Below are positions 1-52,821 of a stretch of DNA of 53,893 bases, piece after piece; position 1 is the stretch's first letter; each line of letters opens with the position of its first letter. The translations under genes and the position numbers were made by a program. The notes beneath the pieces are model-generated. The model had not been told where the DNA came from. It saw nothing but the letters and a program-made list of their open reading frames with translations, and searched no databases. Source of the stretch: Candidatus Falkowbacteria bacterium (GTDB lineage Bacteria; Patescibacteriota; Patescibacteriia; JACRDY01); assembly GCA_016218485.1 (NCBI GenBank), contig JACRDY010000062.1, forward strand, positions 1 to 53,893. The letters run 5' to 3'.

Positions 1-2
1 TG

Positions 3-1033: not shown

Positions 1034-1063
1034 AATTTCTAGTTTCCAATTTCTAATTTCTAA
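1034..1063. repeat. Single-arm heptamer array (AATTTCT x~4)
   Basis: aatttct agtttcc aatttct aatttct aa; same unit as the right arm at 23528-23552. Confidence 0.6.
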
Positions 1064-1066
1064 CCT

Positions 1067-2308
1067 CTATTCATACCGCAGCGCCTCAATCGGATTCAGG
1101 CCCGCCGCCCGGCGCGCCGGGTAGTAGCCAAACGTTACCCCGATCCCGATACAGACCACACAGGCGATTAAGATAGAGTCTAGGGACACGACAAAATCCC
1201 AGCTGTACCCAAGGTACTGGGCCACGCTGGCGATCAGAAACGCGATCAGCGCGCCAATGACAATCCCGATCACCCCGGCGGAAAATGTCAGCATAACTGC
1301 TTCGACCAAAAATTGGCTAAGGATATTTTCCCGCGTGGCGCCGACGGCTTTGCGTAGGCCGATCTCGCGCGTCCGCTCCGTCACCGCCGCGAGCATAATA
1401 TTCATGATCCCCACGCCGCCGACAAAGAGCGCGATGGCCGCGATCGCCGTCAGGAAATATTTGAGCGCGTCGGTAATGCTGGTCAGCGTCTTAATCGCGT
1501 CAGCAATTGAGCGAACCGAGAAATCATCATCAGCCGGCTCGTCAATGTCGTGCTGCTCACGTAGTATCGACCGGACGTCTTCCATGCTGCTCTCCACATT
1601 CTCGGGCGAGTCAACCTTGGCCCGGGCAAACCCCAGGTGGTCGATGCCCAGGAGTAGCTTCTGCGCCGAGGAAACAGGAATCACAATGACGTCGCTCGGG
1701 TCATCCAGACCGCTGACGTCTTTCTGTTTCATTGTCCCAATGACCGTAAAATTCTCTTTGTTAATTTTAATTTTCTCGCCAATCGGATCCGCCTCCACAA
1801 ACAGGTCCTCCACCACCCCCGGCCCCAGTATGGCCACGCGCGCCAAGCTCCGCTCTTCTTCTTCGGTCAAAAACCGGCCAGCCGCAAGATCGATCCCCTC
1901 AACGTCCAAATACTGGTAGCCCGAGCCGACAAACGTCCCGTCAATACTCCGATTCTGCCAGACGACGCTGCCGACCCCGCGTGAATACGGCGCGGCCGCC
2001 ACGATGTGCGGCGCTCGGGCTTTGTTCAAGAGCTCACGGTAATCATCATACTTCAGCGTGGTGACTAAAATTCCCATGGCTGAAGCGGGCGGGCCGGCAT
2101 CGTCAGCGGCGCCCGGCAGCACGCCAATGAGGTTGGCACCCTGGCCTTCGAGCTGATTAATGATCAGACTCTGCGCCCCCGCGCCCACCGACATAATCAC
2201 AATCACCGCGGTAATCCCAATAATCACGCCGAGCATTGTTAGTAAGGCGCGTTTCTTGTTTGATCGGAGCGACCGGTCCGCCGTACGGTAAATATCCAAT
2301 AGGTACAT
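1067..2308 (-). CDS. ABC transporter permease, MacB/FtsX family
   Basis: RALLTMLGVIIG N-terminus, GGVGIMNIML…ERTREIGLRKAVGA, C-terminal YPARRAAGLNPIEALRYE. Confidence 0.93.
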   Translation of the reverse strand: MYLLDIYRTADRSLRSNKKRALLTMLGVIIGITAVIVIMSVGAGAQSLIINQLEGQGANLIGVLPGAADDAGPPASAMGILVTTLKYDDYRELLNKARAPHIVAAAPYSRGVGSVVWQNRSIDGTFVGSGYQYLDVEGIDLAAGRFLTEEEERSLARVAILGPGVVEDLFVEADPIGEKIKINKENFTVIGTMKQKDVSGLDDPSDVIVIPVSSAQKLLLGIDHLGFARAKVDSPENVESSMEDVRSILREQHDIDEPADDDFSVRSIADAIKTLTSITDALKYFLTAIAAIALFVGGVGIMNIMLAAVTERTREIGLRKAVGATRENILSQFLVEAVMLTFSAGVIGIVIGALIAFLIASVAQYLGYSWDFVVSLDSILIACVVCIGIGVTFGYYPARRAAGLNPIEALRYE

Positions 2309-2309
2309 A

Positions 2310-2384
2310 AATTACGAATTACGAATTACGAATTACGAATGATACTTGACCAATTCGTAATTCGTAATTATTAATTCGTAATTA
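2310..2384. repeat. Mirror-microsatellite element, unit AATTACG/CGTAATT
   Basis: (AATTACG)x4, 11-nt spacer, inverted array; fills the gap between the ATPase stop and the permease start. Confidence 0.9.
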
Positions 2385-3110
2385 TTTCTTAAGCTCTCCC
2401 CCGTCTTTAGCGACAATCCGATTACTGACCCGTTCATCAGAGACTAACAAACCATCCTTCGTGCGGAGAATGCGCTGCGCGTGTTCAGCGGTATACTTCT
2501 CATGGGTCACGAGAATAATCGTCTTGCCCTGCTCATTCAAATCTTCGAGAATCTCCATCACCTGCGCGCCGGACTTAGAGTCTAGGTTGCCGGTCGGCTC
2601 GTCCGCGAAAATCACGTCAGGGTTATTGACGAGTGAGCGGGCAATCGCCACGCGCTGTTTCTCACCGCCGGACAATTTGTTCGAGAGGTAATCCAGCCGG
2701 TGACCCAGGCCGACCGCTGCCAGCGCTTTACTGGCAATGACGCGACGATCATTTTCCTTGACCGCGCGGTTATACACCAGCGGCAGCATCACATTGTCAA
2801 GCACGCTGGTTCGCGCCAGCAAGTTGAATGACTGGAAAATAAAGCCAATCTCCCGCAGCCGCGTCTGCGCCATTTCCGCCTCGGTCAATTGACTAACATC
2901 CCTGCCTTTAAATAAATACTGCCCGCTGGTTAACGTATCCAAAAAACCCAAGATATGCATCAAGGTTGATTTACCCGAACCGGACGGCCCCATAATCGCC
3001 ACGAATTCACCGGGCATGACATCAAAACTAACGCCGTGCAGGACCTTGGTCACGACCTCATCGTTGGCGAATTCTTTAGTCAGGTTTGTTATTTTGATGA
3101 TTGGATCCAT
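2382..3110 (-). CDS. ABC transporter ATP-binding protein, MacB/LolD-like
   Basis: Walker A GPSGSGKS, LSGGEKQRVAIARSL, FADEPTGNLD. Confidence 0.95.
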   Translation of the reverse strand: MDPIIKITNLTKEFANDEVVTKVLHGVSFDVMPGEFVAIMGPSGSGKSTLMHILGFLDTLTSGQYLFKGRDVSQLTEAEMAQTRLREIGFIFQSFNLLARTSVLDNVMLPLVYNRAVKENDRRVIASKALAAVGLGHRLDYLSNKLSGGEKQRVAIARSLVNNPDVIFADEPTGNLDSKSGAQVMEILEDLNEQGKTIILVTHEKYTAEHAQRILRTKDGLLVSDERVSNRIVAKDGGELKK

Positions 3111-3116
3111 ACAATT

Positions 3117-3307
3117 AGTTGAAAGTTATAAAGTTAAAAGCAGGAGTTACGCACTTTTAATAAAAATTGGCTAAAATTAGCTGTTAATAATTTTTATTGT
3201 TACTCTAAAATTAGCTGAAAATTTTAGAAGTGCGTAACTCCTGTTAAAAGTTAGAAAGTTCTACAACTTTTAACTTTATAACTTTATAACTTTCAACTTT
3301 CTAACTT
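3117..3307. repeat. Mirror-microsatellite element, unit AAAGTT(AT/G/A), interrupted by a MITE
   Basis: agttgaaagttataaagttaaaag … aactttataactttcaactttctaact. Confidence 0.88.
3141..3243. mobile_element. 103-bp MITE, copy 1
   Basis: 16-bp perfect TIR CAGGAGTTACGCACTT; flanking TTAAAAG direct repeat (3134-3140, 3244-3250); exact reverse-complement copy at 35698-35800. Confidence 0.9.
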
Positions 3308-4960
3308 CTATTTACTGCCGTTCTTCACAAATGTCACCACGTTCTCGCCCTCACTCAAACCAGAAACGACTTCCACGAGACCGTCATCGCCCTTCAAGCC
3401 AGTCTGCACCGCACGATCTGCCACCTGGTTAGCCTCGGCATCGGTCAACACCTGTACCTTCCCCTCCACCACCGCGCGCTGAGGAATAACCAACACGCCG
3501 GTACGGCTATCGGTCAGCACATCAACGTTGGCGGTCATGCCCGGCTTGATGTCGTATTCTGTTTCATCAATATTCACTTTGACTTTATAGTACACTACAC
3601 CGGAAATTTCCGTCTCGGCCGGTTCAATCAAAATAATATGACCGGTAAATAGCGCCTCGTCGCCAAAGGCATCCAACGTCACCTTGGCTTCATCGCCAAC
3701 GGAAATCTTGGCAATATCAGACTCAGGCACGTCCACCTCAATTTCAAACTGCTGGTCGCCCAGCATCACCACCACCGGCGTTGTTAAACTAGCGTACTCA
3801 CCAATGGAGTTGTTAACTTTGGTAACCACCCCGGCCACCGGCGCCGTGATGACCCGATCCGACATTTTCTGCTGAATAGCAGCGACCTGCGCTGCCGCCT
3901 GATCCACCAGCGCGCTGTAATAGGCCACATCGCTCTTCTTCGGATCAGCCGCCGTCACCGCGTACTGCGCTTTGGCTAAATCCCAGGCTTGCTGCTTGAT
4001 CTCAAGCGTATCTTCAGCGCTCGCCACCGCATTATCATAGTAGAGTCGCTTGGTCTGCAGATTGGACGCGTCAGTCTGTAAAGTATTAATGCCAGTACTG
4101 ATAGTCGTCTGTTCGGTCCGAATGGTCGTCTTGAGCGTATCCAGACTGGCTTCGGGGAATGAGGCGGAGGTGATGGACGCCAACAGCGCGTTGTACATTG
4201 AATCAAGCGCCAGCGCCACCTGATTGAGTGACAACTTGACATTATTGAGCGCTGCCAAGATTTGTTGCTGATCGCCGCTCGCCTTGGCATTGACGAGCAC
4301 CTGATCACTGGCCGAGAGTATCGTCAGCGCATCCTCACGCTGTACTTTGGTGTTAATTAAATATTGAGGGTTCTTAATGCTGATGTAATCTTTGCCGGCC
4401 GGATCGTTATATACCGTCTGGATAACATCCAGCGATGCCCTGGCTTTAAAAAGATAATTACGGATATCATTAAGCGCGGTATCACGGTAAATCGTCATAT
4501 TCTCATCACGATCTTTCTGTGTATTATGCAGACTGGTCAGCGCGGCGTTATAGGCCGCTGCCGCATTCTCGACTTGAGATTCGGCCACCTGCAGTTCCGG
4601 CTCCGTAGCGCCATCCAGTACTTTCTGAAGGTTAGCCTGCGCTGATGCCAGAGTAGCCTGGTACTGCCGCAACTGCACCGCCAGATCACCGGCATCCAAA
4701 CGAGCCAGCACCTGCCGGGCCGTCACTGGCTGGCCGACGACTGCTGTCATACCAGTAATCCGCCCGCTGGCCGCGAAATTAAGTTCAATTTCTTCAGCGC
4801 TCTTGATCTGCCCGGTGGCGGAAACCGTCTGGGTCAGATCCTGACGGACGACTGGCGTGGTAGTATATTCCACACTCTGCTTATCACCTCCGCGAAAATA
4901 GAGCGCGGCGCCGATCACCACGACCACTGCTCCAATAATAATGATTCTTTTTTTCGTCAT
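3308..4960 (-). CDS. Efflux periplasmic adaptor / membrane-fusion protein (HlyD/MacA-like)
   Basis: N-terminal TM, VSATGQI…ASGRI, long coiled coil, ITAPVAGVV, KPGMTANV; in an operon with the ABC ATPase and permease. Confidence 0.9.
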   Translation of the reverse strand: MTKKRIIIIGAVVVVIGAALYFRGGDKQSVEYTTTPVVRQDLTQTVSATGQIKSAEEIELNFAASGRITGMTAVVGQPVTARQVLARLDAGDLAVQLRQYQATLASAQANLQKVLDGATEPELQVAESQVENAAAAYNAALTSLHNTQKDRDENMTIYRDTALNDIRNYLFKARASLDVIQTVYNDPAGKDYISIKNPQYLINTKVQREDALTILSASDQVLVNAKASGDQQQILAALNNVKLSLNQVALALDSMYNALLASITSASFPEASLDTLKTTIRTEQTTISTGINTLQTDASNLQTKRLYYDNAVASAEDTLEIKQQAWDLAKAQYAVTAADPKKSDVAYYSALVDQAAAQVAAIQQKMSDRVITAPVAGVVTKVNNSIGEYASLTTPVVVMLGDQQFEIEVDVPESDIAKISVGDEAKVTLDAFGDEALFTGHIILIEPAETEISGVVYYKVKVNIDETEYDIKPGMTANVDVLTDSRTGVLVIPQRAVVEGKVQVLTDAEANQVADRAVQTGLKGDDGLVEVVSGLSEGENVVTFVKNGSK

Positions 4961-5083
4961 ATGATGGATTACCCTATGATATAAAATTACCCATAGATTT
5001 TCTAAATTCCGTATATACTATACTCGGTAATTGATAAATAATCAAGTTAAAATACAGGCAAGCATAGAAATTATTAAACATTA

Positions 5084-5312
5084 AAAATCCCAAATCCCAA
5101 TACCCCAGGCAATGACAAATTCCTAATGACAAATGACCAGTCAATGCTTAATGTCTAATGTCAAATATCCAAACTTTTGGCATTAGAGCTTTGATATTTG
5201 GCATTGATTTGTCATTTGGATTTTAAACTTTGGCATTATGAGATATTGGGATTTGGGATTTTAGTCATTCGTAATTAGCCCTAAAGGGGCTCTTTCGGGG
5301 TAATTCGTAATT
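5084..5312. repeat. Nested mirror-microsatellite elements (outer AAATCCC, inner AATGAC/TGGCATT, adjacent TTCGTAA remnants)
   Basis: Perfect 19-bp IR AAAATCCCAAATCCCAATA (5084-5102 / 5244-5262) enclosing a second heptamer hairpin. Confidence 0.82.
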
Positions 5313-5313
5313 C

Positions 5314-5342
5314 TTGCATTATTTCAAACTCTATGCTATAGT
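5314..5342 (+). promoter_or_regulatory. Sigma70-like promoter of rpmE
   Basis: TTGCAT-17 nt-TATAGT with an extended TG. Confidence 0.55.
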
Positions 5343-5369
5343 ACGGGCATTCTGTATTAAATATTGTTT

Positions 5370-5678
5370 ATGAAAAAGGATATTCACCCGGAATACTACA
5401 AAGAGGCCAAGGTCACCTGCGCCTGCGGCAATAGCTTCACGGTCGGCTCCACCGTCAAGGAAATTGAGACGGAGCTGTGTTTTATGTGTCATCCGTTCTA
5501 CACCGGCACCCAAAAACTGGTTGACACCGCGCGTCGCGTCGATAAATTCAAACAAAAATTGGAAAAAGCCAGCGCCGCCGCGTTCGCCAGTCGGGGCAAA
5601 AAAGTCAAGCGCGCTAAACGAGCCGCGACTAAACAGGCTAAAGCTAAAGCCAAGAAAACCGTCTCTGCTGAAGAGTAA
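5370..5678 (+). CDS. rpmE: 50S ribosomal protein L31 (Zn-type) with Lys/Ala-rich tail
   Basis: MKKDIHPEY…CACGN…CHPFYTG…RVDKF; ATG at 5370 preferred over TTG at 5364. Confidence 0.95.
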
Positions 5679-5926
5679 CTTTTGAAGCCCGCTTCGTCTA
5701 TTGCCAAATCTTTTGGTATAATGGCAAAGCGGGTTTTTGAATTTTACGGGCTGCTCAAGTCCGCCGCGGCGGGCGCAGAGCAGACCAAGGTAAAATTCAT
5801 CCGCCATGTCCCGTCTGGCGGGACGAAGACGGATCAATCACTCTGACTACCAACACTATCCAGCGATAAGAAACATCCTGGCAAGGGCGGGGTAATGGTT
5901 GAGATGGTTACCAAACATCTAACACT

Positions 5927-6964
5927 ATGAATATCCAAGAAGTACAGCAAGAGTACGCCGATCTGGAACAGCAACTCCAGGATGTTTCAGTTACCGCCAA
6001 TCCCCAAAAGTTAAAAACTCTGTCACAGCGCTACAATGAACTGAAAGAAACCATGACCGCGGTCAGCGAGCTGGAAATGGTTGAGCGGCAAATCAGCGAT
6101 AACCAGTTAACCCTGCAGGATAACGACCCTGAACTGCGCGAACTGGCCGAAGTGGAAGCGCTGGAACTGCAGACGCGCCGTGAGCAGCTACAGCGCACGG
6201 TCAACGATCTGCTCAATCCGGCCGATCCGCTGGACAAAAAAAATGTCATCATGGAAATCCGCGCCGGCACCGGCGGAGACGAGTCCGCGCTGTTTGCCGC
6301 TGAACTGTTTCGCCTGTACTCCCGCTACGCCGAAAACCAAGGCTGGAAAACTAAAATCATTGATGCCAATCGCACCGGCATTGGCGGCTTTAAAGAAGTT
6401 ATTTTCTCCGTTACCGGTGGCAAAGTCTATGGTGATTTGAAATACGAGAGCGGGACGCATCGCGTCCAGCGCGTACCGGAAACTGAAAAGAGCGGCCGTA
6501 TTCATACTTCGGCCGTCACGGTGGCAGTATTGCCGGAAGCAGAGGAAGTGGATATAGAAATCAAACCAGAAGATCTACGTATTGATGTCTTTCGCGCCGG
6601 TGGCAAAGGCGGCCAGGGTGTCAACACCACCGACTCGGCGGTCCGCATCACCCACCTGCCGACCGGTCTGGTCGTCGCCTGCCAGGATGAGCGCAGCCAG
6701 CTGCAAAACAAGACCAAAGCCCTGCAGGTGCTGCGCTCGCGGCTGCTAGCGGCCGTGGAAGAAAAAAACCGCGCCCAGCGAGCCGCCAACCGCAAAAGTC
6801 AAATTGGCAGCGGCGACCGCAGTGAAAAAATCCGCACCTACAATTTCCCCCAAGATCGGGTGACGGATCACCGCGTCAAAGAAAACTGGTTCGGTATTGA
6901 CAGTATCATCAACGGCAATATTGAGCCGATCATCGCCGCGCTTAAACAAGCAGACAAAGGATAA
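5927..6964 (+). CDS. prfA: Peptide chain release factor 1
   Basis: GGQ motif, HRVQRVPET, followed by prmC. Confidence 0.97.
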
Positions 6965-7036
6965 TTACGAATTACGAATTAAAAATTACGAATTGTTTGA
7001 TATTTATTCGTAATTCGTAATTTGTAATTCGTAATT
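6963..7036. repeat. Mirror-microsatellite element, unit AATTACG
   Basis: Array overlaps the prfA stop; inverted array ends 3 nt before the prmC ATG. Confidence 0.9.
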
Positions 7037-7039
7037 TTT

Positions 7040-7915: not shown

Positions 7916-7926
7916 TTGTTTAAACA

Positions 7927-7955
7927 TTGCAATTCTTTAATACTTATACTATAAT
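7927..7955 (+). promoter_or_regulatory. Near-consensus sigma70 promoter with no downstream ORF
   Basis: TTGCAA-17 nt-TATAAT. Confidence 0.65.
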
Positions 7956-7961
7956 GACATT

Positions 7962-8024
7962 GGCACTTGTGAGGGCTTTGGCCCTCTCGCGGTCAATACA
8001 TAAACCGCAGACAGGTGCTTTTTT
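7962..8024 (+). ncRNA. Candidate small structured RNA (three-way junction ending in a U-run)
   Basis: Closing stem GCACTTGT/ACAGGTGC, hairpins GAGGGC/GCCCTC and GCGGT/ACCGC, then TTTTTT; starts about 7 nt after the -10. Confidence 0.5.
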
Positions 8025-8514: not shown

Positions 8515-8546
8515 GGGTTTAGTATAGAACACTACGGCATTTATTT

Positions 8547-9638: not shown

Positions 9639-9649
9639 AATGAAAAAAC

Positions 9650-9712
9650 AAGATTTAAGATTAAAGATTAAAGAAAGCCGTCTTAAATCTTTAATCTTAA
9701 ATCTTAAATCTT
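9650..9712. repeat. Mirror-microsatellite element, unit AAGATT(T/A)
   Basis: aagatttaagattaaagattaaaga … tcttaaatctttaatcttaaatcttaaatctt. Confidence 0.88.
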
Positions 9713-9736
9713 ATTTCTTCATACTTATTACTAACC

Positions 9737-10414: not shown

Positions 10415-10477
10415 AAGTTTTGGCTAAAATAAAAAAGATTTTTTAATAAATCTTGATACTCACAGTACTAAAATAAC

Positions 10478-10834: not shown

Positions 10835-10873
10835 AGATTCACTATATCATCTCTGCAACCATTAGTCAAAAAA

Positions 10874-12000: not shown

Positions 12001-12123
12001 TAATGAAGAAGTAAGATTAGGATTAAAGATTTAGGATTTAAGAATTAAGATTTAAGTGAAAACAGAGAAAAGGAAGCATTCTTAAATCTTACTTCTTAAA
12101 TCTTTAATCTTACTTCTTCATTA
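12001..12123. repeat. Mirror-microsatellite element, unit AAGATT(T/A)/AGGATTT
   Basis: Perfect 19-bp outer IR TAATGAAGAAGTAAGATTA (12001-12019 / 12105-12123). Confidence 0.88.
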
Positions 12124-13043: not shown

Positions 13044-13049
13044 AAAACG

Positions 13050-13124
13050 TGTAACATGTAGCGTGTAGCTTGTAGCTTGTAACTCACAACTATTTAAGCT
13101 ACATGTTACACGCTACATGTTACA
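13050..13124. repeat. Mirror-microsatellite element, unit TGTA(G/A)CN
   Basis: Perfect 18-bp IR TGTAACATGTAGCGTGTA / TACACGCTACATGTTACA. Confidence 0.88.
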
Positions 13125-16496: not shown

Positions 16497-16647
16497 AAGA
16501 CTACGAATATACTGGGACTACGAATTTACGAATAGTTACGAATATACGAATCAGGAAATTAAGGGTTAGGGCCTAACCACAGCTTACCAGTGAGGATATT
16601 CGTATATTAGTAACTATTCGTACATTCGTAGTTGTATTCGTAGTCTT
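16497..16647. repeat. Mirror-microsatellite element, unit TACGAAT(A/T)
   Basis: aagactacgaata … tattcgtagtctt; central hairpin GGTTAGGGCCTAACC. Confidence 0.85.
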
Positions 16648-18285: not shown

Positions 18286-18385
18286 TTAATAATCTTAAAG
18301 CTATTATATCAAACTCTTAGTCAAGACACTATTCCCCACGGTAGTGGGCGGGCGGAAGCAACAACAGAAGCAGGTAGTAACAATT

Positions 18386-18505
18386 AAATCATAAATCCAA
18401 AATTTTAAATCCTAAATCATAAATTCCAAATCCAAAACCGTGAGTTTATTTAAGATTTAAGACATTAGAATTTATTTAGGACTTAGGATTTTGGATTTGG
18501 AATTT
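18386..18505. repeat. Mirror-microsatellite element, unit AAAT(C/T)(C/A)T; homologous to 52266-52389
   Basis: 33-nt exact match 18449-18481 to the reverse complement of 52290-52322. Confidence 0.88.
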
Positions 18506-18641
18506 TATGTTTGTAGAGACAGTTCACGACCCATCCCTGCTTGCCCTAATCAATACCTCATGGTAGAGTCTACTATTGGTATAGAGACAAACCACACACG
18601 GGCGGCCTGCCATAGCCGCTCTCACACCAAGGGGGATAATC

Positions 18642-23341: not shown

Positions 23342-23449
23342 AGGGATACTGACAGTATGCCGCAAAAAATTAAAAAAGTCAAAGATTTCCCAACACTCAA
23401 TACTTTAATCCCCACAAATTACTCATTTCAATCAATGGAGTAGCTGATT

Positions 23450-23552
23450 AAAGAGAAATTGGAAATTGGAAATTAAAAACACGGCTTTTGGTCGTTAACC
23501 AGGGTTTTAAAACCCTGGTTAACGGACAATTTCTAATTTCCAATTTCTCTTT
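23450..23552. repeat. Mirror-microsatellite element, unit AAATTGG, with a nested palindrome
   Basis: Perfect 18-bp IR AAAGAGAAATTGGAAATT (23450-23467 / 23535-23552). Confidence 0.88.
23493..23524. repeat. 32-bp perfect palindrome with core GGGTTTTAAAACCC
   Basis: CGTTAACCAGGGTTTTAAAACCCTGGTTAACG. Confidence 0.85.
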
Positions 23553-23699
23553 ATCTATCCCCTTAATCAGGGTACATTATAGATGCCCAGAAATCAATTT
23601 CCCCCTTATTCATTGCTGCTTCCCGCGCACTATTGGAAAGGCAAAACTCACCATCAGACGGGAATTTTGCTGTCACCACTATAATTATTCCGTACAAAA

Positions 23700-23852: not shown

Positions 23853-24043
23853 AAGATAGTTAAATTGTCACATTGCTAAATTGCCACATTGCTATATTGT
23901 TAAATTGTCAAATGGCTACATTACCAAATAGTTATATTGCCATACTGTTACCGGCGCTACTCAATGATGCAACAATATAACCATATAACAATATGACGAT
24001 GTAGCAATGTGGCAATTTAGCAATGTAGCCATACAACCATCTT
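23853..24043. repeat. Long mirror-microsatellite element, 8-mer ACATTGCT/AGCAATGT
   Basis: About 12 units left and about 9 right; perfect 25-bp IR 23870-23894 / 24002-24026. Confidence 0.9.
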
Positions 24044-24963: not shown

Positions 24964-25041
24964 AGTTAGAAAGTTAAAAGTTATAAAGTTGAAAGTACGA
25001 GACTTAGAACTTTCAACTTTATAACTTTCAACTTTCAACTT
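24964..25041. repeat. Mirror-microsatellite element, unit AAAGTT(AT/G/A), between ftsE and ftsX
   Basis: Shares AAAGTTATAAAGTTGAAAGTACG with the element at 42976. Confidence 0.9.
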
Positions 25042-25721: not shown

Positions 25722-26013
25722 GATGGCGATGCTGACATTGCTACATTGAGATGGTTACAAAACTGTTTTTAAGCGAGACGCAGGACTTTTTGGCCAAGGC
25801 GAGGAAAACCAGTGAAATGATTTGAGGCGTAATATCATTACGGTGAAAATCATTTCGCGCTAGTTTGACGAAGCCTTGGACGAAAAGGACCAGTCGCAGC
25901 AAAAAGAGTTTTGTAACCATCTCATTGTTATTCAGAGCAACGAACAGTGCGGCAATTTGGCAATGTAGCAATTTAGCAATTTAACAATGTAGCAATGTAG
26001 CAATGTAACCATC
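25722..26013. repeat. Mirror-microsatellite element, 8-mer ACATTGCT, interrupted by a MITE
   Basis: 37-nt exact match 25936-25972 to 40628-40664. Confidence 0.85.
25748..25923. mobile_element. 176-bp MITE with a 17-bp TIR and ATT target duplication
   Basis: ATT[GAGATGGTTACAAAACT…AGTTTTGTAACCATCTC]ATT; imperfectly palindromic interior; the uninterrupted paralogous site is at about 40612-40640. Confidence 0.85.
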
Positions 26014-28200: not shown

Positions 28201-28285
28201 TTCCAATATTTCATATTTCATGTTTCAAGTTTTTAAGTATTGCTCTTTAAATGGATAAGGGGAAACTTGAAACGTGAAACTTGGA
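28201..28285. repeat. Mirror-microsatellite element, unit TTTCA(TA/TG/AG)
   Basis: tttcatgtttcaagttt … aaacttgaaacgtgaaa (16/17 IR). Confidence 0.75.
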
Positions 28286-28678: not shown

Positions 28679-28718
28679 ATAGCCTAGTATAGCACAAAAT
28701 CAAGCGCCGCTGTACGGG

Positions 28719-28787
28719 CAGTGATTATCCGTGTTCTTCGTGCTCCCCCGATGGCCATCGGGCACGGATCAACACGGATAATTACTG
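28719..28787. repeat. Hairpin element of the ACACGGAT class with a central 16-bp palindrome
   Basis: CAGTGATTATCCGTGTT…CCCGATGGCCATCGGG…AACACGGATAATTACTG. Confidence 0.75.
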
Positions 28788-28803
28788 TTTCAACTCCTTA
28801 ATC

Positions 28804-35678: not shown

Positions 35679-35819
35679 AATAATTACGAATTACTAACAG
35701 GAGTTACGCACTTCTAAAATTTTCAGCTAATTTTAGAGTAACAATAAAAATTATTAACAGCTAATTTTAGCCAATTTTTATTAAAAGTGCGTAACTCCTG
35801 TTAGTAATTCGTAATTATT
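35679..35819. repeat. Mirror element (AATTACG class) with a MITE at its exact centre
   Basis: Perfect 19-bp IR AATAATTACGAATTACTAA directly flanking the MITE. Confidence 0.88.
35698..35800. mobile_element. 103-bp MITE, copy 2 (inverted)
   Basis: Exact reverse complement of 3141-3243. Confidence 0.9.
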
Positions 35820-35838: not shown

Positions 35839-36906
35839 CTACCCCTTGTTTGTCAATTCTCTAATGATTGCAAGCAATGCCTGTGTCGCGCCCGGTTTGA
35901 GTAATGATTTAATATTTCGGGATAGCTGATCGCGATCTGACGGATTATCCAAGAGCGCCTTAAGCTGCGCCACGAATCCGGCGCTGTCTAATCCTGATTG
36001 TGGTAAATACACCGCCGCGTGACTGTGAGCAAAGTACACAGCATTAGCTTCCTGATGGCTCTGCGGCAGTGGAATCACCACCGTCGGCTTACCCAATGCC
36101 GCCAGTTCACTCAAAAAACCAAATCCCGCGCGCGACACCACCACATCAGCCACCGCCAGAGCATCTGGCATTTCTGCCTGCAAAAATTCATAGGGATGGT
36201 ACCGCTCTACGGGCGCACTGACCACGCTCTTTCCCGCTCCGGTCACGTGGATGATTTGGCAGAATGCCGTCAAGTCAGACAAGCTGTCAGCCACTAACTG
36301 ATTGAGTACTGTTGCCCCGGTGCCTCCACCGATAACCAGAACTGTTGGCAGAGACGAGTCTAAACCGAAACGGTGGAGCGCGGAAGCTCTGCTCCCGGTC
36401 AGAATGCTCTGCCGCACGGGGTTGCCGATCCAGACAGTTTTAATGCGATTGAAATACGGCAGCGATTCGGCCAGCGCCACGGTAATACGCTGGGCAAACG
36501 GCGCCGAGAGTTTATTCGCCAATCCCGGAAGACAATCTTGCTGATGGACGACGACCGGAATCCGCAAGAGCCACGCCGAGAAGACCACCGGTACAGCGAT
36601 GAAACTGCCGGCGCTGACCACCACCTCCGGCTGCAGCCGATGGAGCAGCGCCAGACTCTGGATACAACCGTAGATAATTCTGAACGGATCCAAAAAATTT
36701 TGCAGCGAAAAATACCGGCGCACTTTGCCACCGCTGATCGGCTGAAAAGTAATACCGGCGTCAGTCACGACTTGGCGCTCGGGACCATTGGCGGTGCCTA
36801 TCCAAAAAAGCTCATCAACCGAACTGGCTGATTGCAGCGCTTCACTGACCGCCAGGAGCGGTGTGACTGAACCCATTGTTCCTCCACCGGCAAAGAGTAT
36901 TTTCAT
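35839..36906 (-). CDS. murG: MurG glycosyltransferase
   Basis: GGGTMGSVTP, GNPVR, GGGTGA, SRAG, HQEANA. Confidence 0.94.
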   Translation of the reverse strand: MKILFAGGGTMGSVTPLLAVSEALQSASSVDELFWIGTANGPERQVVTDAGITFQPISGGKVRRYFSLQNFLDPFRIIYGCIQSLALLHRLQPEVVVSAGSFIAVPVVFSAWLLRIPVVVHQQDCLPGLANKLSAPFAQRITVALAESLPYFNRIKTVWIGNPVRQSILTGSRASALHRFGLDSSLPTVLVIGGGTGATVLNQLVADSLSDLTAFCQIIHVTGAGKSVVSAPVERYHPYEFLQAEMPDALAVADVVVSRAGFGFLSELAALGKPTVVIPLPQSHQEANAVYFAHSHAAVYLPQSGLDSAGFVAQLKALLDNPSDRDQLSRNIKSLLKPGATQALLAIIRELTNKG

Positions 36907-36911
36907 ATTTT

Positions 36912-37000
36912 AGATTGTAGATTTCAGATTGCAGATTTCAGATTTGTTATAGTAGTAACGTTACATGCCGACTCAATCTGCAATCTGAAATCTGCAATCT
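36912..37000. repeat. Mirror-microsatellite element, unit AGATT(G/T)C, between ftsW and murG
   Basis: Perfect 19-bp IR 36926-36944 / 36982-37000. Confidence 0.9.
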
Positions 37001-37001
37001 T

Positions 37002-38108
37002 TTATATTTTACTGAACCGGCTGATATTCAGCAAAATACCCACGGCCGCTAAACTAGTCATCAGCGCCGTGCCGCCCGCGCTGATAAAGGGCAACGGGAT
37101 ACCGGTCATCGGCAGGAGCGAGAGCATCCCCATGATATTGATAAATGACTGAAAAATCAACCAGGTGATAATCCCGATCACCAACAGCCGGGAAAACCGA
37201 TCTGGCGTATTTTTGGCGAGCACAAATCCCCGATGAGCGAAAAACAGCAGGAGCCCAATGAACGCCGTGGTAAACAGGAACCCTAACTCCTCACCGATAA
37301 TAGCAAAGATACTGTCGCCCGTCACCTCCGGCAAATAGGAAAATTTCTGACGGCTATGCCCCAAACCGACACCGAAAAATCCGCCGGAGCCGACGGCAAT
37401 CAAGGACTGCCAGATATGGTAAGCAATCCCCTGCGGATCACGTTCAGGGTGCAGGAAGGCGGTAAAGCGATCCATCCGGTAGGGCGCGATTTTTACCAGC
37501 GCCAAAAACCCCGCCAGGCCGACCGCGCCAATAATCCCCAAATGTTTAAGGCTGCCGCCGCCAACAAAATACATAATCACCGCGGTAATCACGATAATAG
37601 ACAGTGTCCCTAAGTCAGGCTGTAAGAGCATCAAGACTGAAATAATCCCGAGTACTATCGCAAAAGGCAAAAAACTGTTATGCAAATCCTGCACCCGCTT
37701 CTCGCCGCGACCATCCAGCCAGGCCGCCAGGTAAATCAGAAACGTCAGTTTAACGATTTCCGCCGGCTGCACGGAAAAACCAAGAATCGTTATCCAGCTC
37801 TTGGCGCTGCCATACTCGGCGCCCAGTCCGGGAATAAAAACAAGCGTCAACAGCGCTATGGAAAAAATTAACAATGGCCAAGCCAGCTGCTTCAGCTTAG
37901 TATAGTGAAAACGGGAAAAAAAGAAAAACAGCGCTACACCAGGCAGTAAGCCGGTAACAATCTGGTGAATGACAAAGTAGTATGGTTGATTAAATTTCTG
38001 ATAGGCAATCGGCGTGCTGGCTGAAGATAAAACAATAAAACCGAAGAGGAGGAGCACCACCACTATGCCCAGAAGCAGGTAATCCGGCTGATGTCCGCGG
38101 TGCTGCAT
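37002..38108 (-). CDS. ftsW: Cell division SEDS protein FtsW
   Basis: QPAEIVK, QPDLGT, GLGHSRQKFSYLPE; located between murD and murG. Confidence 0.92.
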   Translation of the reverse strand: MQHRGHQPDYLLLGIVVVLLLFGFIVLSSASTPIAYQKFNQPYYFVIHQIVTGLLPGVALFFFFSRFHYTKLKQLAWPLLIFSIALLTLVFIPGLGAEYGSAKSWITILGFSVQPAEIVKLTFLIYLAAWLDGRGEKRVQDLHNSFLPFAIVLGIISVLMLLQPDLGTLSIIVITAVIMYFVGGGSLKHLGIIGAVGLAGFLALVKIAPYRMDRFTAFLHPERDPQGIAYHIWQSLIAVGSGGFFGVGLGHSRQKFSYLPEVTGDSIFAIIGEELGFLFTTAFIGLLLFFAHRGFVLAKNTPDRFSRLLVIGIITWLIFQSFINIMGMLSLLPMTGIPLPFISAGGTALMTSLAAVGILLNISRFSKI

Positions 38109-40583: not shown

Positions 40584-40676
40584 ATAGTTACACTGTTACA
40601 TTGCTACATTGCTACATTGTTATTTATAGCAACGAACAGTGCGGCAATTTGGCAATGTAGCAATGTAACCATCTCA
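40584..40676. repeat. Mirror-microsatellite element, 8-mer ACATTGCT (empty-site paralogue of 25722-26013)
   Basis: ctacattgttatttatagcaacgaacagtgcggcaatttggcaatgtagcaatgtaaccatctc. Confidence 0.88.
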
Positions 40677-41069
40677 TTATAAATTAATCCAAACCAGCAA
40701 GCTGCCGCCTAAGAGCAAGAGCGCGGTCATCAGTGCGGTCACCCCGCCCAAGAGGTACGCGGCCAGACGCTGCTCTTGATAAAAAACCAAGGCCAGAACG
40801 ACATTGACCAGCCAGAGAAACGTCCCGACCGCCGGCGTCAGGTACAGCGAATACCAAGAACCGATCAGGTCAATGCCGAAATACACCGAGTAGTGCAAAA
40901 CCAGCGGATCAGCTGACGGTTTGACCAGCAAGTAGAGTACCAGATAGAGCACACAATTCAATACCAGCGCGAACAAAAATAACAGCAACAAAAGACGATC
41001 TTGCAAAAAAATTAAATTCAGCCGAGCCTTAATACCGTGGCTCCACAGGCTTAACCGGGTCAGTGGCAT
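40677..41069 (-). CDS. Membrane protein (3 TM) upstream of mraY
   Basis: LVLHYSVYFGIDLIGSW motif between TM segments. Confidence 0.75.
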   Translation of the reverse strand: MPLTRLSLWSHGIKARLNLIFLQDRLLLLLFLFALVLNCVLYLVLYLLVKPSADPLVLHYSVYFGIDLIGSWYSLYLTPAVGTFLWLVNVVLALVFYQEQRLAAYLLGGVTALMTALLLLGGSLLVWINL

Positions 41070-42913: not shown

Positions 42914-42975
42914 GCTACCACCAATGATATATGCCTGCCCTGGCTTGGTAAAATCAAACGATGGAGGAGGAAACA

Positions 42976-43043
42976 GTTGAAAGTTATAAAGTTGAAAGTA
43001 CGGAATTTTTAACTTTATAACTTTCAACTTTATAACTTTCAAC
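42976..43043. repeat. Mirror-microsatellite element, unit AAAGTT(AT/G), between pilB and pilC
   Basis: Perfect 24-bp IR 42976-42999 / 43020-43043; ends 2 nt before the ATG. Confidence 0.92.
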
Positions 43044-51067: not shown

Positions 51068-52251
51068 TGCTCTCGCGCTCGCCAAGCTACGTCCTGGGCA
51101 CGGCGAATAATTGCCGGCGCGGAACGCAAAAAATAATTCACCTCGGCAGCCGTGGTACCACGTCCGAGGGTCAGACGAATACTGCCCGCCACTGCCCAAG
51201 CCGGCAGTCCCATAGCCAAGAGTACGTGTGAAGGCTCTATTGAACCTGAAGCGCAGGCCGAGCCGGTGGAGACGGCCATACCGGCGCTGTCGAGCATCAG
51301 CATCAGCCGCTCCCCTTCCACGCCAGTGCAGCTGAAATTAAGATTATTGGGTAATCGTTTCTCAAAACTGCCGTTGATCTGCAGCTTGGGAATTTTTTTT
51401 AGTAACTGCTGGTATAATTGATCACGGAGCAACCGAACAACGGCAGCATCTCGCTGCGGCCGCAATAATTTCACTGCCTCGGCCAGTCCAACAATCAGCG
51501 GCGTATTCAGCGTCCCGGGACGCAATCCCCCCTCCTGGCTGCCCCCGTGCAGAACTGATTTTATTTTTACGCCGGAGCGGACAAACAGCGCGCCGACGCC
51601 TTTCGGTCCATAAATCTTGTGTCCCGACAGAGACAGTAGATCAGCCCGCAAATACCCGACATCGCAGTTAAGATAATTAATTGCCTGGACCGCGTCAGTG
51701 TGCAAGTAAATTCGCTGCGCGCGGCCGCGGTTAAGCCGCTCCAGGAGCTTGCCAATATCGCGCACCGGCTGAATCGTGCCAACTTCATTATTGGCATACA
51801 TCAACGAAATCAACACCGTGGTCGGTCTGATTAATTTTTTGACCGCCTCAAATTTAACCACTCCATCCACGCCAACCGGAACATAATCAACCCGCGCTAA
51901 CCCTTCTGATTCAAGGGCGCGTACAGTCTCCAGCACGGCCGGGTGTTCAATGACTGAAGTAATGATATGTGGACGCCGCAGCGTACTCGCCGCGACCACA
52001 CCGCGAATCGCCAAATTGTCCGCCTCTGTTGCGCCGCTAGTGAAAACTATTTCAGTGGCTGAACAGCCTAAAAATTGAGCGATGCTCGCCCGAGCTGAAT
52101 CAATCGCCGCGGCGGCCGCGCGTCCGGGAGTATGCAGGGACGAGGGATTGCCAAACTGAACGGAAAAAAACGGCCGCATGGCTGCCACCACCCGCGGATC
52201 CACCGGCGTACTCGCGGCACAGTCAAAATAGATTTGTTTTCTTGGGGGCAT
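51064..52251 (-). CDS. iscS: Cysteine desulfurase (IscS/NifS family)
   Basis: FGNPSS, FTSGATEA, HTDAVQ, SGHKIYGPKG, STGSAC. Confidence 0.92.
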   Translation of the reverse strand: MPPRKQIYFDCAASTPVDPRVVAAMRPFFSVQFGNPSSLHTPGRAAAAAIDSARASIAQFLGCSATEIVFTSGATEADNLAIRGVVAASTLRRPHIITSVIEHPAVLETVRALESEGLARVDYVPVGVDGVVKFEAVKKLIRPTTVLISLMYANNEVGTIQPVRDIGKLLERLNRGRAQRIYLHTDAVQAINYLNCDVGYLRADLLSLSGHKIYGPKGVGALFVRSGVKIKSVLHGGSQEGGLRPGTLNTPLIVGLAEAVKLLRPQRDAAVVRLLRDQLYQQLLKKIPKLQINGSFEKRLPNNLNFSCTGVEGERLMLMLDSAGMAVSTGSACASGSIEPSHVLLAMGLPAWAVAGSIRLTLGRGTTAAEVNYFLRSAPAIIRRAQDVAWRAREH

Positions 52252-52265
52252 ACTGCATTAGAATG

Positions 52266-52389
52266 AAATTATAAATTCAAAATTATAAATCCTAAATAAA
52301 TTCTAATGTCTTAAATCTTAAACAAACCGGTGGTTTTGAATTTAGAATTTATGATTTATTTAGGGCTTAGAATTTTGGATTTAGAATTT
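52266..52389. repeat. Mirror-microsatellite element, inverted homologue of 18386-18505
   Basis: AAAT(T/C)NN heptamers with an inverted arm; 33-nt identity to 18449-18481. Confidence 0.88.
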
Positions 52390-52486
52390 AAACAATACGA
52401 GAATTAAAAAGCCCTCCATACAGTAACAATAAACGCCCCACCGAGCGGGACGTCTAGAGCATACCAAGTCGTCTGCGGCTGGTCAA

Positions 52487-52711
52487 TTACTTCATCAGCC
52501 GGTCAACTTTTCGCTTAATCATCCAGACCTTACACCCGAAGTAGACGCTCAATACCGCTAAACAGATCAAGAGAAATGCCACAATGATGACCAAGAAATA
52601 CGGATAAAACAAGGCCAGCACGGCGAAAAACAAGAGAAACAATCCCTGGAGCAGCAAGAACCAAATTAGCTCAATCATCGCGTAGTTAAAATGTTTGTAG
52701 AGATTTTTCAT
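52487..52711 (-). CDS. Small membrane protein (2 TM)
   Basis: 74-aa hydrophobic ORF. Confidence 0.65.
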   Translation of the reverse strand: MKNLYKHFNYAMIELIWFLLLQGLFLLFFAVLALFYPYFLVIIVAFLLICLAVLSVYFGCKVWMIKRKVDRLMK

Positions 52712-52753
52712 AGGAAGCGCGGGTTAAGAGTTAGGGGGCTGAAAATATTATAC

Positions 52754-52821
52754 CACAGATTACACAGATAATCACAGATCACACGGATCTGTGCCATCTG
52801 TGATTATCTGTGTAATCTGTG
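52754..52821. repeat. Mirror-microsatellite element, ~9-mer CACAGAT(TA/AAT)
   Basis: Perfect 26-bp IR 52754-52779 / 52796-52821, abutting a stop codon. Confidence 0.9.

What the first reader, a model, noticed from the sequence alone, without database searches (positions are those of the whole stretch)
1034..52821. Dispersed family of ~22 'mirror-microsatellite' hairpin elements with conserved architecture but many different repeat units
Seen: roughly every 2.5 kb an intergenic spacer holds [tandem 7-9 nt unit]n, a short spacer, then [reverse-complement unit]n, 60-290 bp in total. Units: AATTACG (2310, 6963, 35679), AAAGTTAT/AAAGTTG (3117, 24964, 42976), AAATCCC+AATGAC (5084), AAGATTW (9650, 12001), TGTAGCN (13050), TACGAATW (16497), AAATYCT (18386, 52266), AAATTGG (23450; single arm at 1034), ACATTGCT (23853, 25722, 40584), TTTCANN (28201), ACACGGAT/CACAGAT (28719, 52754), AGATTKC (36912). 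Unit variants are mirrored between arms, giving perfect IRs of 18-26 bp, so the arms evolve together. None has a U-tract or a CRISPR-type spacer. Known: heptameric STRR repeats such as AATTACG and AATGAC occur in heterocystous cyanobacteria. From memory, not verified, four-helix-bundle (23S rRNA IVS protein/bAvd-like) genes are often bracketed by such inverted arrays. Inference: these are non-autonomous, structure-defined mobile or RNA-processing elements whose cognate protein is encoded elsewhere in the genome.
Basis: partly seen in the sequence, partly recalled or inferred. Interest (0 to 1): 0.92.

Follow-up and report, generated by a model that had tools for sequence, protein, structure and literature searches.

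The report
Miniature IVS-type hairpin elements in CPR
The window comes from a tiny-genome groundwater bacterium (Patescibacteria) whose gene spacers and ribosomal RNA genes carry about 190 hairpins with short-repeat arms; these look like gene-less copies of the old, unexplained 'intervening sequence' elements that carry a small four-helix-bundle protein gene.

Summary
All 22 listed sites exist, and 12 of 12 tested fold as one long hairpin (z -5.5 to -12). Genome-wide there are 186 such elements in 981 kb. 387 of 1025 tandem arrays have a mirrored partner, against 29 of 1025 in a control.

The organism is a ~1 Mb Patescibacteria/CPR bacterium, not a cyanobacterium.

All 8 PF05635/TIGR02436 four-helix-bundle genes in this genome sit between inverted tandem arrays, as do 9 of 9 inspected in relatives. 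111 of 185 short hairpins share their arms with 13 such long elements. Same-family hairpins also interrupt this genome's 23S and 16S rRNA genes.

This is the architecture of classical 23S rRNA intervening sequences, for example Coxiella: S23p ORF, heptamer repeats, RNase III excision.

Occupancy of 145 syntenic gene junctions is independent between two genera. One 20-nt core occurs in 31 of 401 genomes of the class.

Best reading: mobile, miniature IVS-type elements. Movement mechanism, RNase III cutting and the protein's role remain untested.

The parts
1029..1063 (.). Single-arm array (ATTTCTA / AATTTCY type), no mirrored partner nearby
   Evidence: (TRF 1029-1063, period 7)
2310..2383 (.). 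AATTACG hairpin filling the spacer between two minus-strand genes (ABC ATPase stop, MacB/FtsX permease start)
   Evidence: I8; z -8.8. Arms match the AATTACG-bracketed 4HB element of G001
3117..3307 (.). AAAGTTR hairpin carrying a 103-bp MITE (3141-3243) in its left arm
   Evidence: Arms match long element E3
5084..5262 (.). Composite nested hairpin (AAATCCC outside, then AATGACA, then AATGTCT)
   Evidence: (I25). Same nesting order as 4HB-bearing element E7
6963..7036 (.). AATTACG hairpin exactly between the prfA stop and the prmC start
   Evidence: I11; z -8.0. The junction has no spacer in G005/G006 and a different hairpin in G001
9640..9722 (.). AAGATTW hairpin
   Evidence: I6; z -8.5. Arms match E2
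12012..12112 (.). AAGATTW hairpin
   Evidence: I12/I13; z -5.5. Arms match E2
13048..13124 (.). TGTAGCN hairpin
   Evidence: I16; z -10.3. Bridged whole by a Logan contig. No long-element match
16497..16645 (.). TACGAATW (8-nt) hairpin with a small inner GC hairpin in the loop
   Evidence: I5; z -8.8. Bridged by a Logan contig
18383..18508 (.). AAATCMW hairpin
   Evidence: (I14)
23449..23553 (.). GGAAATT hairpin with the 30-nt GTTAACC..GGTTAAC palindrome nested in its loop
   Evidence: I19; z -12.0
23853..24043 (.). ACATTGCY (8-nt) long hairpin
   Evidence: (I1, 70-nt arms, 80% complementary)
24964..25041 (.). AAAGTTR hairpin filling a spacer between two minus-strand genes
   Evidence: I15; z -8.7. 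Arms match E3
25722..26009 (.). ACATTGCT arms around a 212-nt loop that itself holds an inverted repeat
   Evidence: (I18)
28201..28285 (.). TTTCANN ... GAAACNT hairpin (T-rich arm first)
28715..28790 (.). ACACGGAT-type imperfect hairpin
   Evidence: read directly
35679..35819 (.). AATTACG hairpin holding the 103-bp MITE (35698-35800), next to a partial tRNA-Lys copy
   Evidence: (I4)
36901..37007 (.). AGATTKC hairpin with the family's conserved loop
   Evidence: I10; z -9.9. Arms match E6
40584..40680 (.). ACATTGCT hairpin
   Evidence: I9; z -6.9
42975..43043 (.). AAAGTTR hairpin ending 2 nt before a start codon
   Evidence: I21, 24 nt, 100%; z -9.8. Arms match E3
52266..52390 (.). AAATYCT hairpin
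   Evidence: (I2)
52754..52821 (.). CACAGAT hairpin with no loop spacer, of the same family as two insertions in this genome's 23S rRNA gene
   Evidence: I7; z -11.3

Best explanation
The hairpins are miniature, ORF-less members of the intervening-sequence (IVS) kind of selfish element.

Full form (about 450-520 bp): a TIGR02436/PF05635 four-helix-bundle gene ('23S rRNA IVS protein', S23p) enclosed by inverted arrays of 7-8 nt tandem units. Short form (median 84 nt): only the two arms and a small loop.

Shown here.
- Both forms coexist in this Patescibacteria genome with the same arm types.
- The short form occupies about 23% of all gene spacers and also the 16S and 23S rRNA genes.
- Occupancy turns over independently between genera.
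- One family's core is scattered over many families of the class.
- The two arms co-vary.

Inferred.
(a) Once transcribed, the 25-40 bp stems are cut by RNase III, as shown in print for 23S IVSs. This would make insertions in rRNA and between cistrons tolerable and would split polycistronic RNAs.
(b) The elements spread by copying, with the 4HB protein as the candidate specificity or mobility factor.
(c) Arm complementarity is kept by selection for the stem and/or by hairpin-templated (template-switch) repair, while unit number drifts by slippage.
For: (1) ORF-bearing versions exist. All 8 PF05635 hits in G000 (114-152 aa ORFs; TIGR02436 58-121 bits against a cut-off of 24; PDB 2GSC 8.5e-21) lie between inverted tandem arrays. 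7 of the 8 had shown up blind as 'orphan array plus mirrored partner 364-444 nt away'. 9 of 9 4HB genes inspected in G001, G003, G004, G016 and G019 are bracketed likewise.

(2) Shared arms. 107 of 185 short hairpins match arms of 7 G000 long elements. The count is 111 of 185 with 5 G001 long elements added. 66 of 144 G001 hairpins match the same 13.

(3) rRNA copies. The 23S gene is 4548 nt against a 2925-position model. It carries CACAGAT hairpins at E. coli positions 224-232 and 654-667, an AAAGTTAT hairpin near 1863-1870 and an AAAGTTA-type hairpin at 2128-2155. The 16S gene has a 145-nt insertion in a hairpin loop that holds an AATTACG hairpin.

(4) Published parallels (passages read). 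The Coxiella 23S IVS is 428 nt, with an S23p ORF, inverted repeats, 2-3 tandem heptamers varying between strains, and RNase III excision (PMC4990558). CPR rRNA genes hold many short ORF-less insertions and some 23S_rRNA_IVP ORFs (PMC11270868). An RNase III gene is present in G000.

(5) Turnover. Of 145 syntenic junctions between G000 and G001, 32 are occupied in G000, 48 in G001 and 12 in both (10.6 expected; Fisher p 0.67). Units differ in 11 of those 12.

(6) Spread. A 20-nt core occurs in 31 of 401 genomes of the class, with the reversed control near zero. It also occurs in at least 120 metagenome contigs.

(7) Co-varying arms; 17 of 21 elements compensate a four-state core position (A 5, C 5, G 4, T 3).

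(8) 4HB gene count tracks hairpin density across 13 genomes (Spearman 0.78; the genomes are not independent).
Against: - 74 of 185 short hairpins match none of the 13 long elements. 8 of the 17 pipeline elements in the window have no match.
- 0 of 185 short elements match the interior of a long element. Descent by internal deletion is therefore not shown. The 4HB cassettes may instead have landed in pre-existing hairpins, as a 103-bp MITE and a 30-nt palindrome do.
- G003 and G004 have 8-9 4HB genes but only 3 hairpins per 100 kb.
- No target-site duplication or empty/filled allele pair was found.
- There is no sense-strand RNA signal. Sense is more stable in 51 and antisense in 70 of 123; G-U pairs are 147 sense against 199 antisense. 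The long elements split 8 against 9.
- The 4HB fold has no known catalytic activity.
- No RNA data could be had, so RNase III cutting is untested.
- In metagenome and G001 copies of the CATTAAAA family many are one-armed or not compensated.
Confidence: 0.68

Rival explanations
1. REP/REPIN-like elements moved by the genome's RAYT (Y1, IS200-like) transposases. The 4HB association would then be secondary.
For: There are two RAYT-like genes: C20:7795-8514 (NF047646 84.7 bits, cut-off 80) and C27:45176-45892 (74.1 bits). By protein search, within the family only hairpin-rich G001 has close homologues, out of 6 family members searched. Hairpin-rich G001 lacks the other palindrome families.
Against: RAYT-model hits also occur in hairpin-poor G003 and G004. 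The RAYT-1 protein was found in 0 of 5 genomes rich in the CATTAAAA core. RAYT-2 is directly preceded by a different, GC-rich palindrome family (46 strand-hits), which is a better REP candidate. No heptamer hairpin flanks either RAYT gene. No conserved flanking tetranucleotide was seen.
Confidence: 0.1
2. Locally evolved functional RNA hairpins (terminators, 3'-end protectors or intercistronic processing sites) in a lineage without Rho. They would not be mobile, and their likeness to IVS arms would reflect shared RNase III requirements.
For: In co-directional spacers 86 elements lie nearer the upstream stop and 40 nearer the downstream start, of 126 (p 5e-5). 75 of 126 lie within 20 nt of the stop. 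The Rho RNA-binding domain was found in 0 of 13 genomes searched. Canonical terminator-like sites are not clearly enriched in window 1-20000 (36 against 26.1, sd 6.2).
Against: Frequency is equal in divergent (18 of 73), convergent (20 of 79) and co-directional (126 of 569) spacers. There is no positional conservation between genera. Copies sit inside rRNA genes. Complex shared cores and loops are dispersed over unrelated loci and genomes. There is no sense-strand G-U bias. Rho-less relatives manage with few or no hairpins. The stop-proximal bias is also what purifying selection on promoters and ribosome-binding sites would leave.
Confidence: 0.12
3. Pure mutational by-product: microsatellite slippage plus quasi-palindrome template switching in AT-rich spacers, with no copying between loci.
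For: Heptamers are the commonest long simple repeats in bacteria and have been ascribed to polymerase slippage (Mrazek 2007, as summarised in PMC4679880). Unit number varies between copies. There are 238 intergenic one-armed arrays.
Against: Families share 20-nt composite cores and 25-30 nt loops, in both orientations, at unrelated loci. The same core occurs in 31 of 401 genomes. Arms are shared with the 4HB cassettes.
Confidence: 0.05
4. Assembly artefact of repeats in a metagenome bin.
For: Logan contigs break at most hairpins.
Against: Two hairpins are bridged whole by Logan contigs. The same architecture occurs in many independent assemblies. Element ends fit stop and start codons exactly.
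Confidence: 0.01

Closest known systems
Bacterial rRNA intervening sequences (IVS) with an S23p/PF05635 ORF, e.g. Coxiella burnetii, Leptospira (PMC4990558, passages read)
   Same: A small element of about 430-520 nt: a four-helix-bundle ORF enclosed by inverted repeats, tandem heptamers next to the ORF whose number varies, lower G+C than the host, and a sporadic distribution. Copies in this genome's own 23S and 16S rRNA genes.
   Different: Most copies here are outside rRNA, in gene spacers, at about 190 per Mb. Most lack the ORF. There are at least 8 arm types with 8 paralogous ORFs in one 1-Mb genome. RNase III excision is untested here.
Short uncharacterised insertion sequences in CPR rRNA genes (PMC11270868, passages read)
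   Same: Same phylum. Short (<200 bp), ORF-less, non-intron insertions at helix tips. 23S_rRNA_IVP ORFs were seen in some. An IVS/RNase III nature was suggested.
   Different: In the passages I read, that study looks only at rRNA genes and describes neither tandem-unit arms nor intergenic copies. Its supplements were not visible to me.
Inverted pairs of GGGAATC heptamer repeats in Xanthomonas (PMC4692102, passages read)
   Same: Intergenic heptamer arrays paired in convergent orientation (70 and 75 pairs), able to form stem-loops. The solved structure closest to the 4HB protein here is also from Xanthomonas campestris (2GSC).
   Different: One G-rich unit, studied as a G-quadruplex. In the passages read, no link is drawn to a protein gene or to IVS. 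83% are conserved in place between two species, unlike here.
REP/BIME and REPIN-RAYT systems; MITEs such as Correia and ERIC elements
   Same: Small intergenic palindromic repeats near gene 3' ends, in mosaic or nested forms, and targets for other insertions. Correia elements are RNase III substrates (abstract of PMC2649163 in the listing).
   Different: No conserved GTAG/CGTC tag, no target-site duplication seen, no transposase sharing the ends. The arms are tandem 7-8 nt units.
Cyanobacterial STRR heptamer repeats and TAACTGA repeats of Beggiatoaceae (PMC4679880; STRR units recalled, not checked)
   Same: Tandem heptamers in spacers, often next to start codons.
   Different: Those are mostly described as direct arrays. 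This organism is not a cyanobacterium.

Membership tests
rRNA intervening sequence (IVS) elements | Inverted repeats that form an extended stem around the element | tested here: met
rRNA intervening sequence (IVS) elements | Optional ORF of the S23p / PF05635 / TIGR02436 family inside the stem | tested here: met
   8 of 8 G000 4HB genes are bracketed. None lies in the window itself.
rRNA intervening sequence (IVS) elements | Located in rRNA genes at helix tips | tested here: inconclusive
   Same-family copies are in the 23S gene (4 sites) and the 16S gene (1 site). The window's 22 copies are all intergenic.
rRNA intervening sequence (IVS) elements | Excised from the transcript by RNase III without religation | not testable with these tools
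   No RNA run is listed. An RNase III gene is present.
MITE (miniature inverted-repeat transposable element) | Terminal inverted repeats shared with a longer, ORF-bearing element | tested here: met
   107 of 185 share arms with 7 long elements
MITE (miniature inverted-repeat transposable element) | The parent element encodes a transposase | tested here: not met
   The ORF is a four-helix-bundle protein with no known transposase family
MITE (miniature inverted-repeat transposable element) | Target-site duplication | tested here: inconclusive
   None is visible in family alignments. Fuzzy, periodic ends would hide one.
REP / REPIN-RAYT | RAYT gene flanked by its own REPs; conserved unpaired tetranucleotide tag | tested here: not met
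Cyanobacterial STRR | Tandem heptamers in heterocystous cyanobacteria | tested here: not met
   The genome is Patescibacteria: 981 kb at 91.55% completeness, and the relatives' record titles say so
Diversity-generating retroelement (Avd + RT) | Avd-family protein next to a DGR reverse transcriptase with template and variable repeats | tested here: not met
   The Avd model scores 33 bits against a cut-off of 80 in 1 of 6 proteins scanned. The only RT is retron-like and lies 2.2 kb from the nearest 4HB gene.

The most novel reading that the evidence does not exclude
IVS elements are not an rRNA oddity. They would be a general class of mobile hairpin element that can settle in any transcribed, RNase III-tolerant site. 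Each four-helix-bundle (S23p) paralogue would be the sequence-specific partner of its own tandem-unit arms, giving an autonomous/miniature system comparable to transposon/MITE or RAYT/REPIN. This would be a new kind of mobility or maintenance protein, and this 1-Mb genome displays at least 8 matched sets.
Probability: 0.3. Interest if true: 0.85.

Novelty: new variant of a known kind. Interest (0 to 1): 0.72.

Why it matters
The origin, mobility and purpose of rRNA intervening sequences and of their S23p protein have been open since about 1990 (stated in PMC4990558).

This streamlined 1-Mb genome shows the same architecture in three settings at once:
- with the ORF (8 copies);
- without it (about 180 copies, in about 23% of gene spacers);
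- inside rRNA genes.

Arm types match between the forms. That turns a vague question into testable ones:
- Does each 4HB paralogue bind its own arms?
- Does RNase III cut the spacer hairpins and so shape operon RNAs?

It also explains many of the 'uncharacterised short insertions' in CPR rRNA genes, and 2% of a reduced genome that would otherwise be called spacer. My literature searches found no description of intergenic IVS-type hairpin families in CPR. Subscription papers (e.g. Elhai 2008, not held) and supplements were not visible.

Tried and rejected
- RNA-level selection. Sense and antisense folding energies and G-U counts showed no sense bias. The duplexfold run on 200-nt flanks over-extends and is noisy.
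- Local spread. Neighbouring elements share a unit in 5 of 128 pairs, against 4.3 expected. A first try with single-linkage families lumped 115 elements together and was useless.
- ORF in the loop, by my own gene caller. It missed the small 4HB genes. 10 'bracketed' larger ORFs were scanned: 5 matched housekeeping families (trigger factor, L1, LytR, T2SSE, HD), 4 matched no Pfam family and 1 was the retron-like RT; none was a transposase.
- Phage vector. The CATTAAAA-family core was found in 0 viral contigs, in two scans.
- The gapped hairpin pattern found nothing in metagenome contigs. The 20-mer alone found at least 120.
- RAYT link: not supported.
- DGR/Avd and RT link: not supported.
- Rho: not found in 13 of 13 genomes, so it does not discriminate between hairpin-rich and hairpin-poor genomes.
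- Sequencing runs. No RNA holder is listed. The 3 DNA runs come from one groundwater study and are held as contigs only. Laying them gave breaks and loose ends at the arrays but no clean polymorphism.
- The 7-nt direct repeats beside the 103-bp MITE cannot be told apart from array periodicity.
- The Python cap (40 scripts) was reached, so no 4HB-versus-arm co-phylogeny was made.

Full report
WHAT IS THERE

The window (contig C54 of a 981,248-base, 69-contig assembly, about 51% G+C) carries, in its gene spacers, hairpins whose 5' arm is a tandem array of 7-9 nt units and whose 3' arm is the array of reverse-complement units.

Twelve that I folded each give a single long stem, with z-scores from -5.5 to -12.0 and 0 of 200 shuffles as stable.

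Several fill a spacer exactly from the stop codon of one gene to the start codon of the next. Examples are 2310-2383, 6963-7036 (prfA to prmC), 24964-25041, 36901-37007 and 42975-43043.

GENOME-WIDE FIGURES

- Tandem-repeat periods peak sharply at 7, 8, 9 and 14 (458, 218, 147 and 126 of 1313 rows).
- 387 of 1025 merged arrays have a mirrored partner within 350 nt. A control using random other flanks gives 29 of 1025, and 50 of 1025 have a direct partner.
- These make 186 elements: median 84.5 nt, median loop 19 nt, 30% G+C, 1.9% of the genome.
- Only 4 of 186 lie inside predicted genes, although about 79% of the genome is coding by my rough gene caller.
- They occupy 126 of 569 co-directional, 20 of 79 convergent and 18 of 73 divergent spacers, that is 22-25% of each class.
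- In co-directional spacers they sit nearer the upstream stop codon in 86 cases and nearer the downstream start in 40 (p 5e-5). 40 of 126 fill the spacer.
- The 5' arm is A-rich in 152 of 186. A relative (G018) shows the opposite polarity, so polarity is a family trait.

THE ORGANISM

The assembly is 91.55% complete at under 1 Mb. All 30 relatives have genomes of 0.7-1.3 Mb. The nearest public records are MAGs titled Patescibacteria group, Falkowbacteria, Kuenenbacteria and the like. The best-holding sequencing run is a groundwater metagenome.

THE ELEMENTS ARE FAMILIES, NOT INDEPENDENT MICROSATELLITES

55 of 120 loops of 14 nt or more fall into 15 clusters, and each cluster goes with one unit type. 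For example, the AGATTGC arms go with a conserved loop of about 27 nt that is found in both orientations.

The largest family is not a pure repeat. It has a composite core, AACAC-N-AGAACATTAAAACA, then a loop, then the mirrored core.

Some families are nested palindromes. GGAAATT arms enclose a 30-nt perfect palindrome, which has 32 copies genome-wide. 11 of these lie in loops found by the pipeline, and by eye most of the rest also lie between such arrays.

THE ARMS CO-VARY

- In-register complementarity is 0.91. It is 0.70-0.78 after shifting one arm by whole units, and 0.75 between adjacent units of one arm.
- At the variable core position N, 17 of 21 G000 elements carry the compensating base (A 5, C 5, G 4, T 3; 4 mismatched).
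- This is less true elsewhere. In G001 and in metagenome contigs many copies of this family are one-armed or uncompensated: 1 of 5 two-armed metagenome copies is compensated, and 135 clusters are one-armed.
- I found no sign that pairing is selected on the sense RNA strand.

THE KEY RESULT

- Every one is an ORF of 114-152 aa lying between inverted tandem arrays.
- Seven coincide with pairs I had already listed blind as 'array plus mirrored array 364-444 nt apart with no gene called between'.
- The proteins are TIGR02436 members (58-121 bits, cut-off 24). The closest solved structure is XCC0516 of Xanthomonas campestris, 2GSC.
- The arm types of these long elements are those of the big short-hairpin families. 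107 of 185 short hairpins match arms of 7 long elements: E4 27, E3 24, E2 23, E8 17, E6 9, E1 4, E7 3. None matches a long element's interior.
- The window's AATTACG hairpins match the arms of an AATTACG-bracketed 4HB gene in the sister genus G001.
- The window's composite 5084 element has the same nesting order as long element E7.
- In relatives, 9 of 9 4HB genes that I inspected are bracketed by inverted arrays of yet other units. I judged this by eye; shared 8-mer counts were 0 to 29.
- PF05635 occurs in 24 of 31 genomes searched. Its copy number rises with hairpin density over 13 genomes (Spearman 0.78; related genomes, so not a proper test). G003 and G004 are clear exceptions, with 8-9 genes and 3 hairpins per 100 kb.

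THE rRNA GENES

The 23S gene (C24:13234-17781) is 4548 nt long. Aligned to E. coli rrlH it has these short insertions:
- a 91-nt CACAGAT hairpin at positions 224-232;
- a 105-nt CACAGAT hairpin at 654-667;
- a 97-nt AAAGTTAT hairpin near 1863-1870;
- a 109-nt AAAGTTA-type hairpin at 2128-2155;
- a GC-rich 105-nt hairpin at the classical helix-45 IVS site (1171-1185);
- a 147-nt insertion at 280-292;
- two intron-sized insertions.

The partial 16S gene has a 145-nt insertion in a hairpin loop that contains an AATTACG hairpin.

These are the same families as in the window: 52754 is CACAGAT; 24964 and 42976 are AAAGTTAT; 2310 and 6963 are AATTACG.

HOW THIS FITS WHAT IS IN PRINT (passages read)

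- The Coxiella 23S IVS is a 428-nt 'selfish' element with an S23p ORF, flanking inverted repeats and 2-3 tandem GACAGAT heptamers whose number differs between strains. It is excised by RNase III. Its origin and the protein's role are stated to be unknown, with old suggestions that it is a transposition remnant or a mobile element whose ORF serves mobility (PMC4990558).
- Xanthomonas has 70-75 inverted pairs of GGGAATC heptamer arrays (PMC4692102).
- What I did not find in print is the intergenic, high-copy, multi-family miniature form linked to 4HB cassettes (searches).

DYNAMICS

- Among 145 gene junctions syntenic between G000 and G001, hairpins occupy 32 and 48. 12 are occupied in both, against 10.6 expected (Fisher p 0.67). 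The units differ in 11 of those 12.
- The prfA-prmC junction has an AATTACG hairpin here, a TCAAAAG hairpin in G001, and no spacer at all in G005 and G006.
- Density ranges from 0 to 42 per 100 kb among 12 relatives sampled, and from 4 to 9 in four more.
- The 20-nt core of one family occurs in 31 of 401 genomes spread over many families of the class, with the reversed control near zero. It also occurs in at least 120 metagenome contigs, but in no viral contig.
- Together this speaks for gain, loss and horizontal spread, not for conserved site-specific function.

MECHANISM: WHAT IS SHOWN AND WHAT IS INFERRED

Shown: the architecture, the family structure, the shared arms, the rRNA copies, the turnover, the co-variation of the arms, and the presence of an RNase III gene.

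Inferred:
- RNase III cutting of transcribed stems. This would explain tolerance in rRNA and between cistrons.
- Copying between loci by an unknown route.
- The 4HB protein as the partner of its own arms.
- Arm homogenisation by template switching and/or selection for the stem.
- Unit-number drift by slippage.

An alternative order of events is not excluded: hairpins first, with 4HB cassettes landing in them. No loop matches a cassette interior, and other small elements do land in these arrays.

RIVALS

- RAYT/REP. Two RAYT-like genes exist, but their distribution does not track the hairpins. One is preceded by a different GC-rich palindrome family.
- Functional terminator or stabiliser. This is favoured by the bias toward stop codons and the absence of a detectable Rho (0 of 13 genomes). 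It is disfavoured by the equal use of divergent spacers, the lack of positional conservation, the rRNA copies and the absence of a sense-strand bias. Secondary use as RNA processing sites remains likely if RNase III cuts them.
- Artefact. Excluded.

VERDICT

I file the elements as a new variant of a known kind: IVS-type elements in miniature, intergenic, multi-family form. Confidence is 0.68 and interest 0.72.

Noticed in passing
window 19806 and 49585 (minus strand); genome-wide, e.g. G000 C27:45092-45160: A second, GC-richer palindromic repeat family (ATCCAGCACCTTYCAGAATACCCCG ... mirrored; also a longer form of about 120 nt). It gives 46 strand-hits in the genome. One copy lies directly upstream of RAYT-like gene 2, so it is a likelier REP partner for the two RAYT genes (C20:7795-8514, C27:45176-45892) than the heptamer hairpins are. 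It is absent from 499 kb of G001.
   Followed up: partly
window 3141-3243 and 35698-35800; also C3:112, C49:29751, C62:4955, C65:8711: A 103-bp MITE with terminal inverted repeat CAGGAGTTACGCACTT. All 6 full copies sit inside or at the edge of heptamer arrays and are flanked by 7-nt direct repeats. These could be target duplications or simply the array's period.
   Followed up: partly
window 13297-13320, 13338-13361, 23497-23520: A 30-nt perfect palindrome, GTTAACC(N)GGGTTTTAAAACCC(N)GGTTAAC, with 32 copies genome-wide. It is mostly nested between GGAAATT/AGAAATT arrays and is sometimes repeated 2-3 times in tandem at a 44-nt period. It contains several restriction-site-like hexamers.
   Followed up: partly
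window 35126-35343 and about 35625-35675: The tRNA-Lys gene (35269-35343, minus strand) is preceded by a 110-nt tandem duplicate holding a partial tRNA copy. A third partial copy abuts the hairpin at 35679. This looks like scars of integration at a tRNA gene.
   Followed up: no
G000 C24:14253-14557 and 14592-15329: The 23S rRNA gene also has insertions of 305 nt and 738 nt at E. coli positions 1951 and 1917-1919, sites known for group I introns in CPR. They were not characterised further.
   Followed up: no
G000 C7:10493-11746 (minus strand): A 417-aa reverse transcriptase, retron-like (retron St85 model 105 bits, below its cut-off of 235; RVT_1 35.8 bits). It is not a DGR RT. It lies 2.2 kb from a 4HB element, but I found no link between them.
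   Followed up: partly
G000 C52:~10400, C37:~4540, C49:~21050; L113:1355-1380; L114:1385-1410; G001/G003/G004 4HB loci: A shared AT-rich motif (AGTTTAGAA.. ATTTTAA .. TGGT.TGGTA or TATAAT-like) lies upstream of 4HB genes and of both RAYT genes. It sits sometimes inside and sometimes outside the left arm. It may be this lineage's promoter consensus.
   Followed up: no
whole genome G000: 238 intergenic one-armed arrays of period 7-9 or 14-16 have no mirrored partner nearby (e.g. window 1029-1063). They are roughly as numerous as the hairpins and are unexplained: half elements, or decayed ones.
   Followed up: no
whole genome G000, 123 elements in co-directional spacers: Predicted G-U pairs are more frequent on the antisense strand (199) than on the sense strand (147). 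This is the opposite of what RNA-level selection would give and may be a strand-biased mutation signal.
   Followed up: no
G000 and 12 relatives: The Rho RNA-binding domain (PF07497) was found in none of 13 genomes, although the control rang in 9 of 14 well-known genomes. Canonical terminator-like sites are not clearly enriched in window 1-20000.
   Followed up: partly
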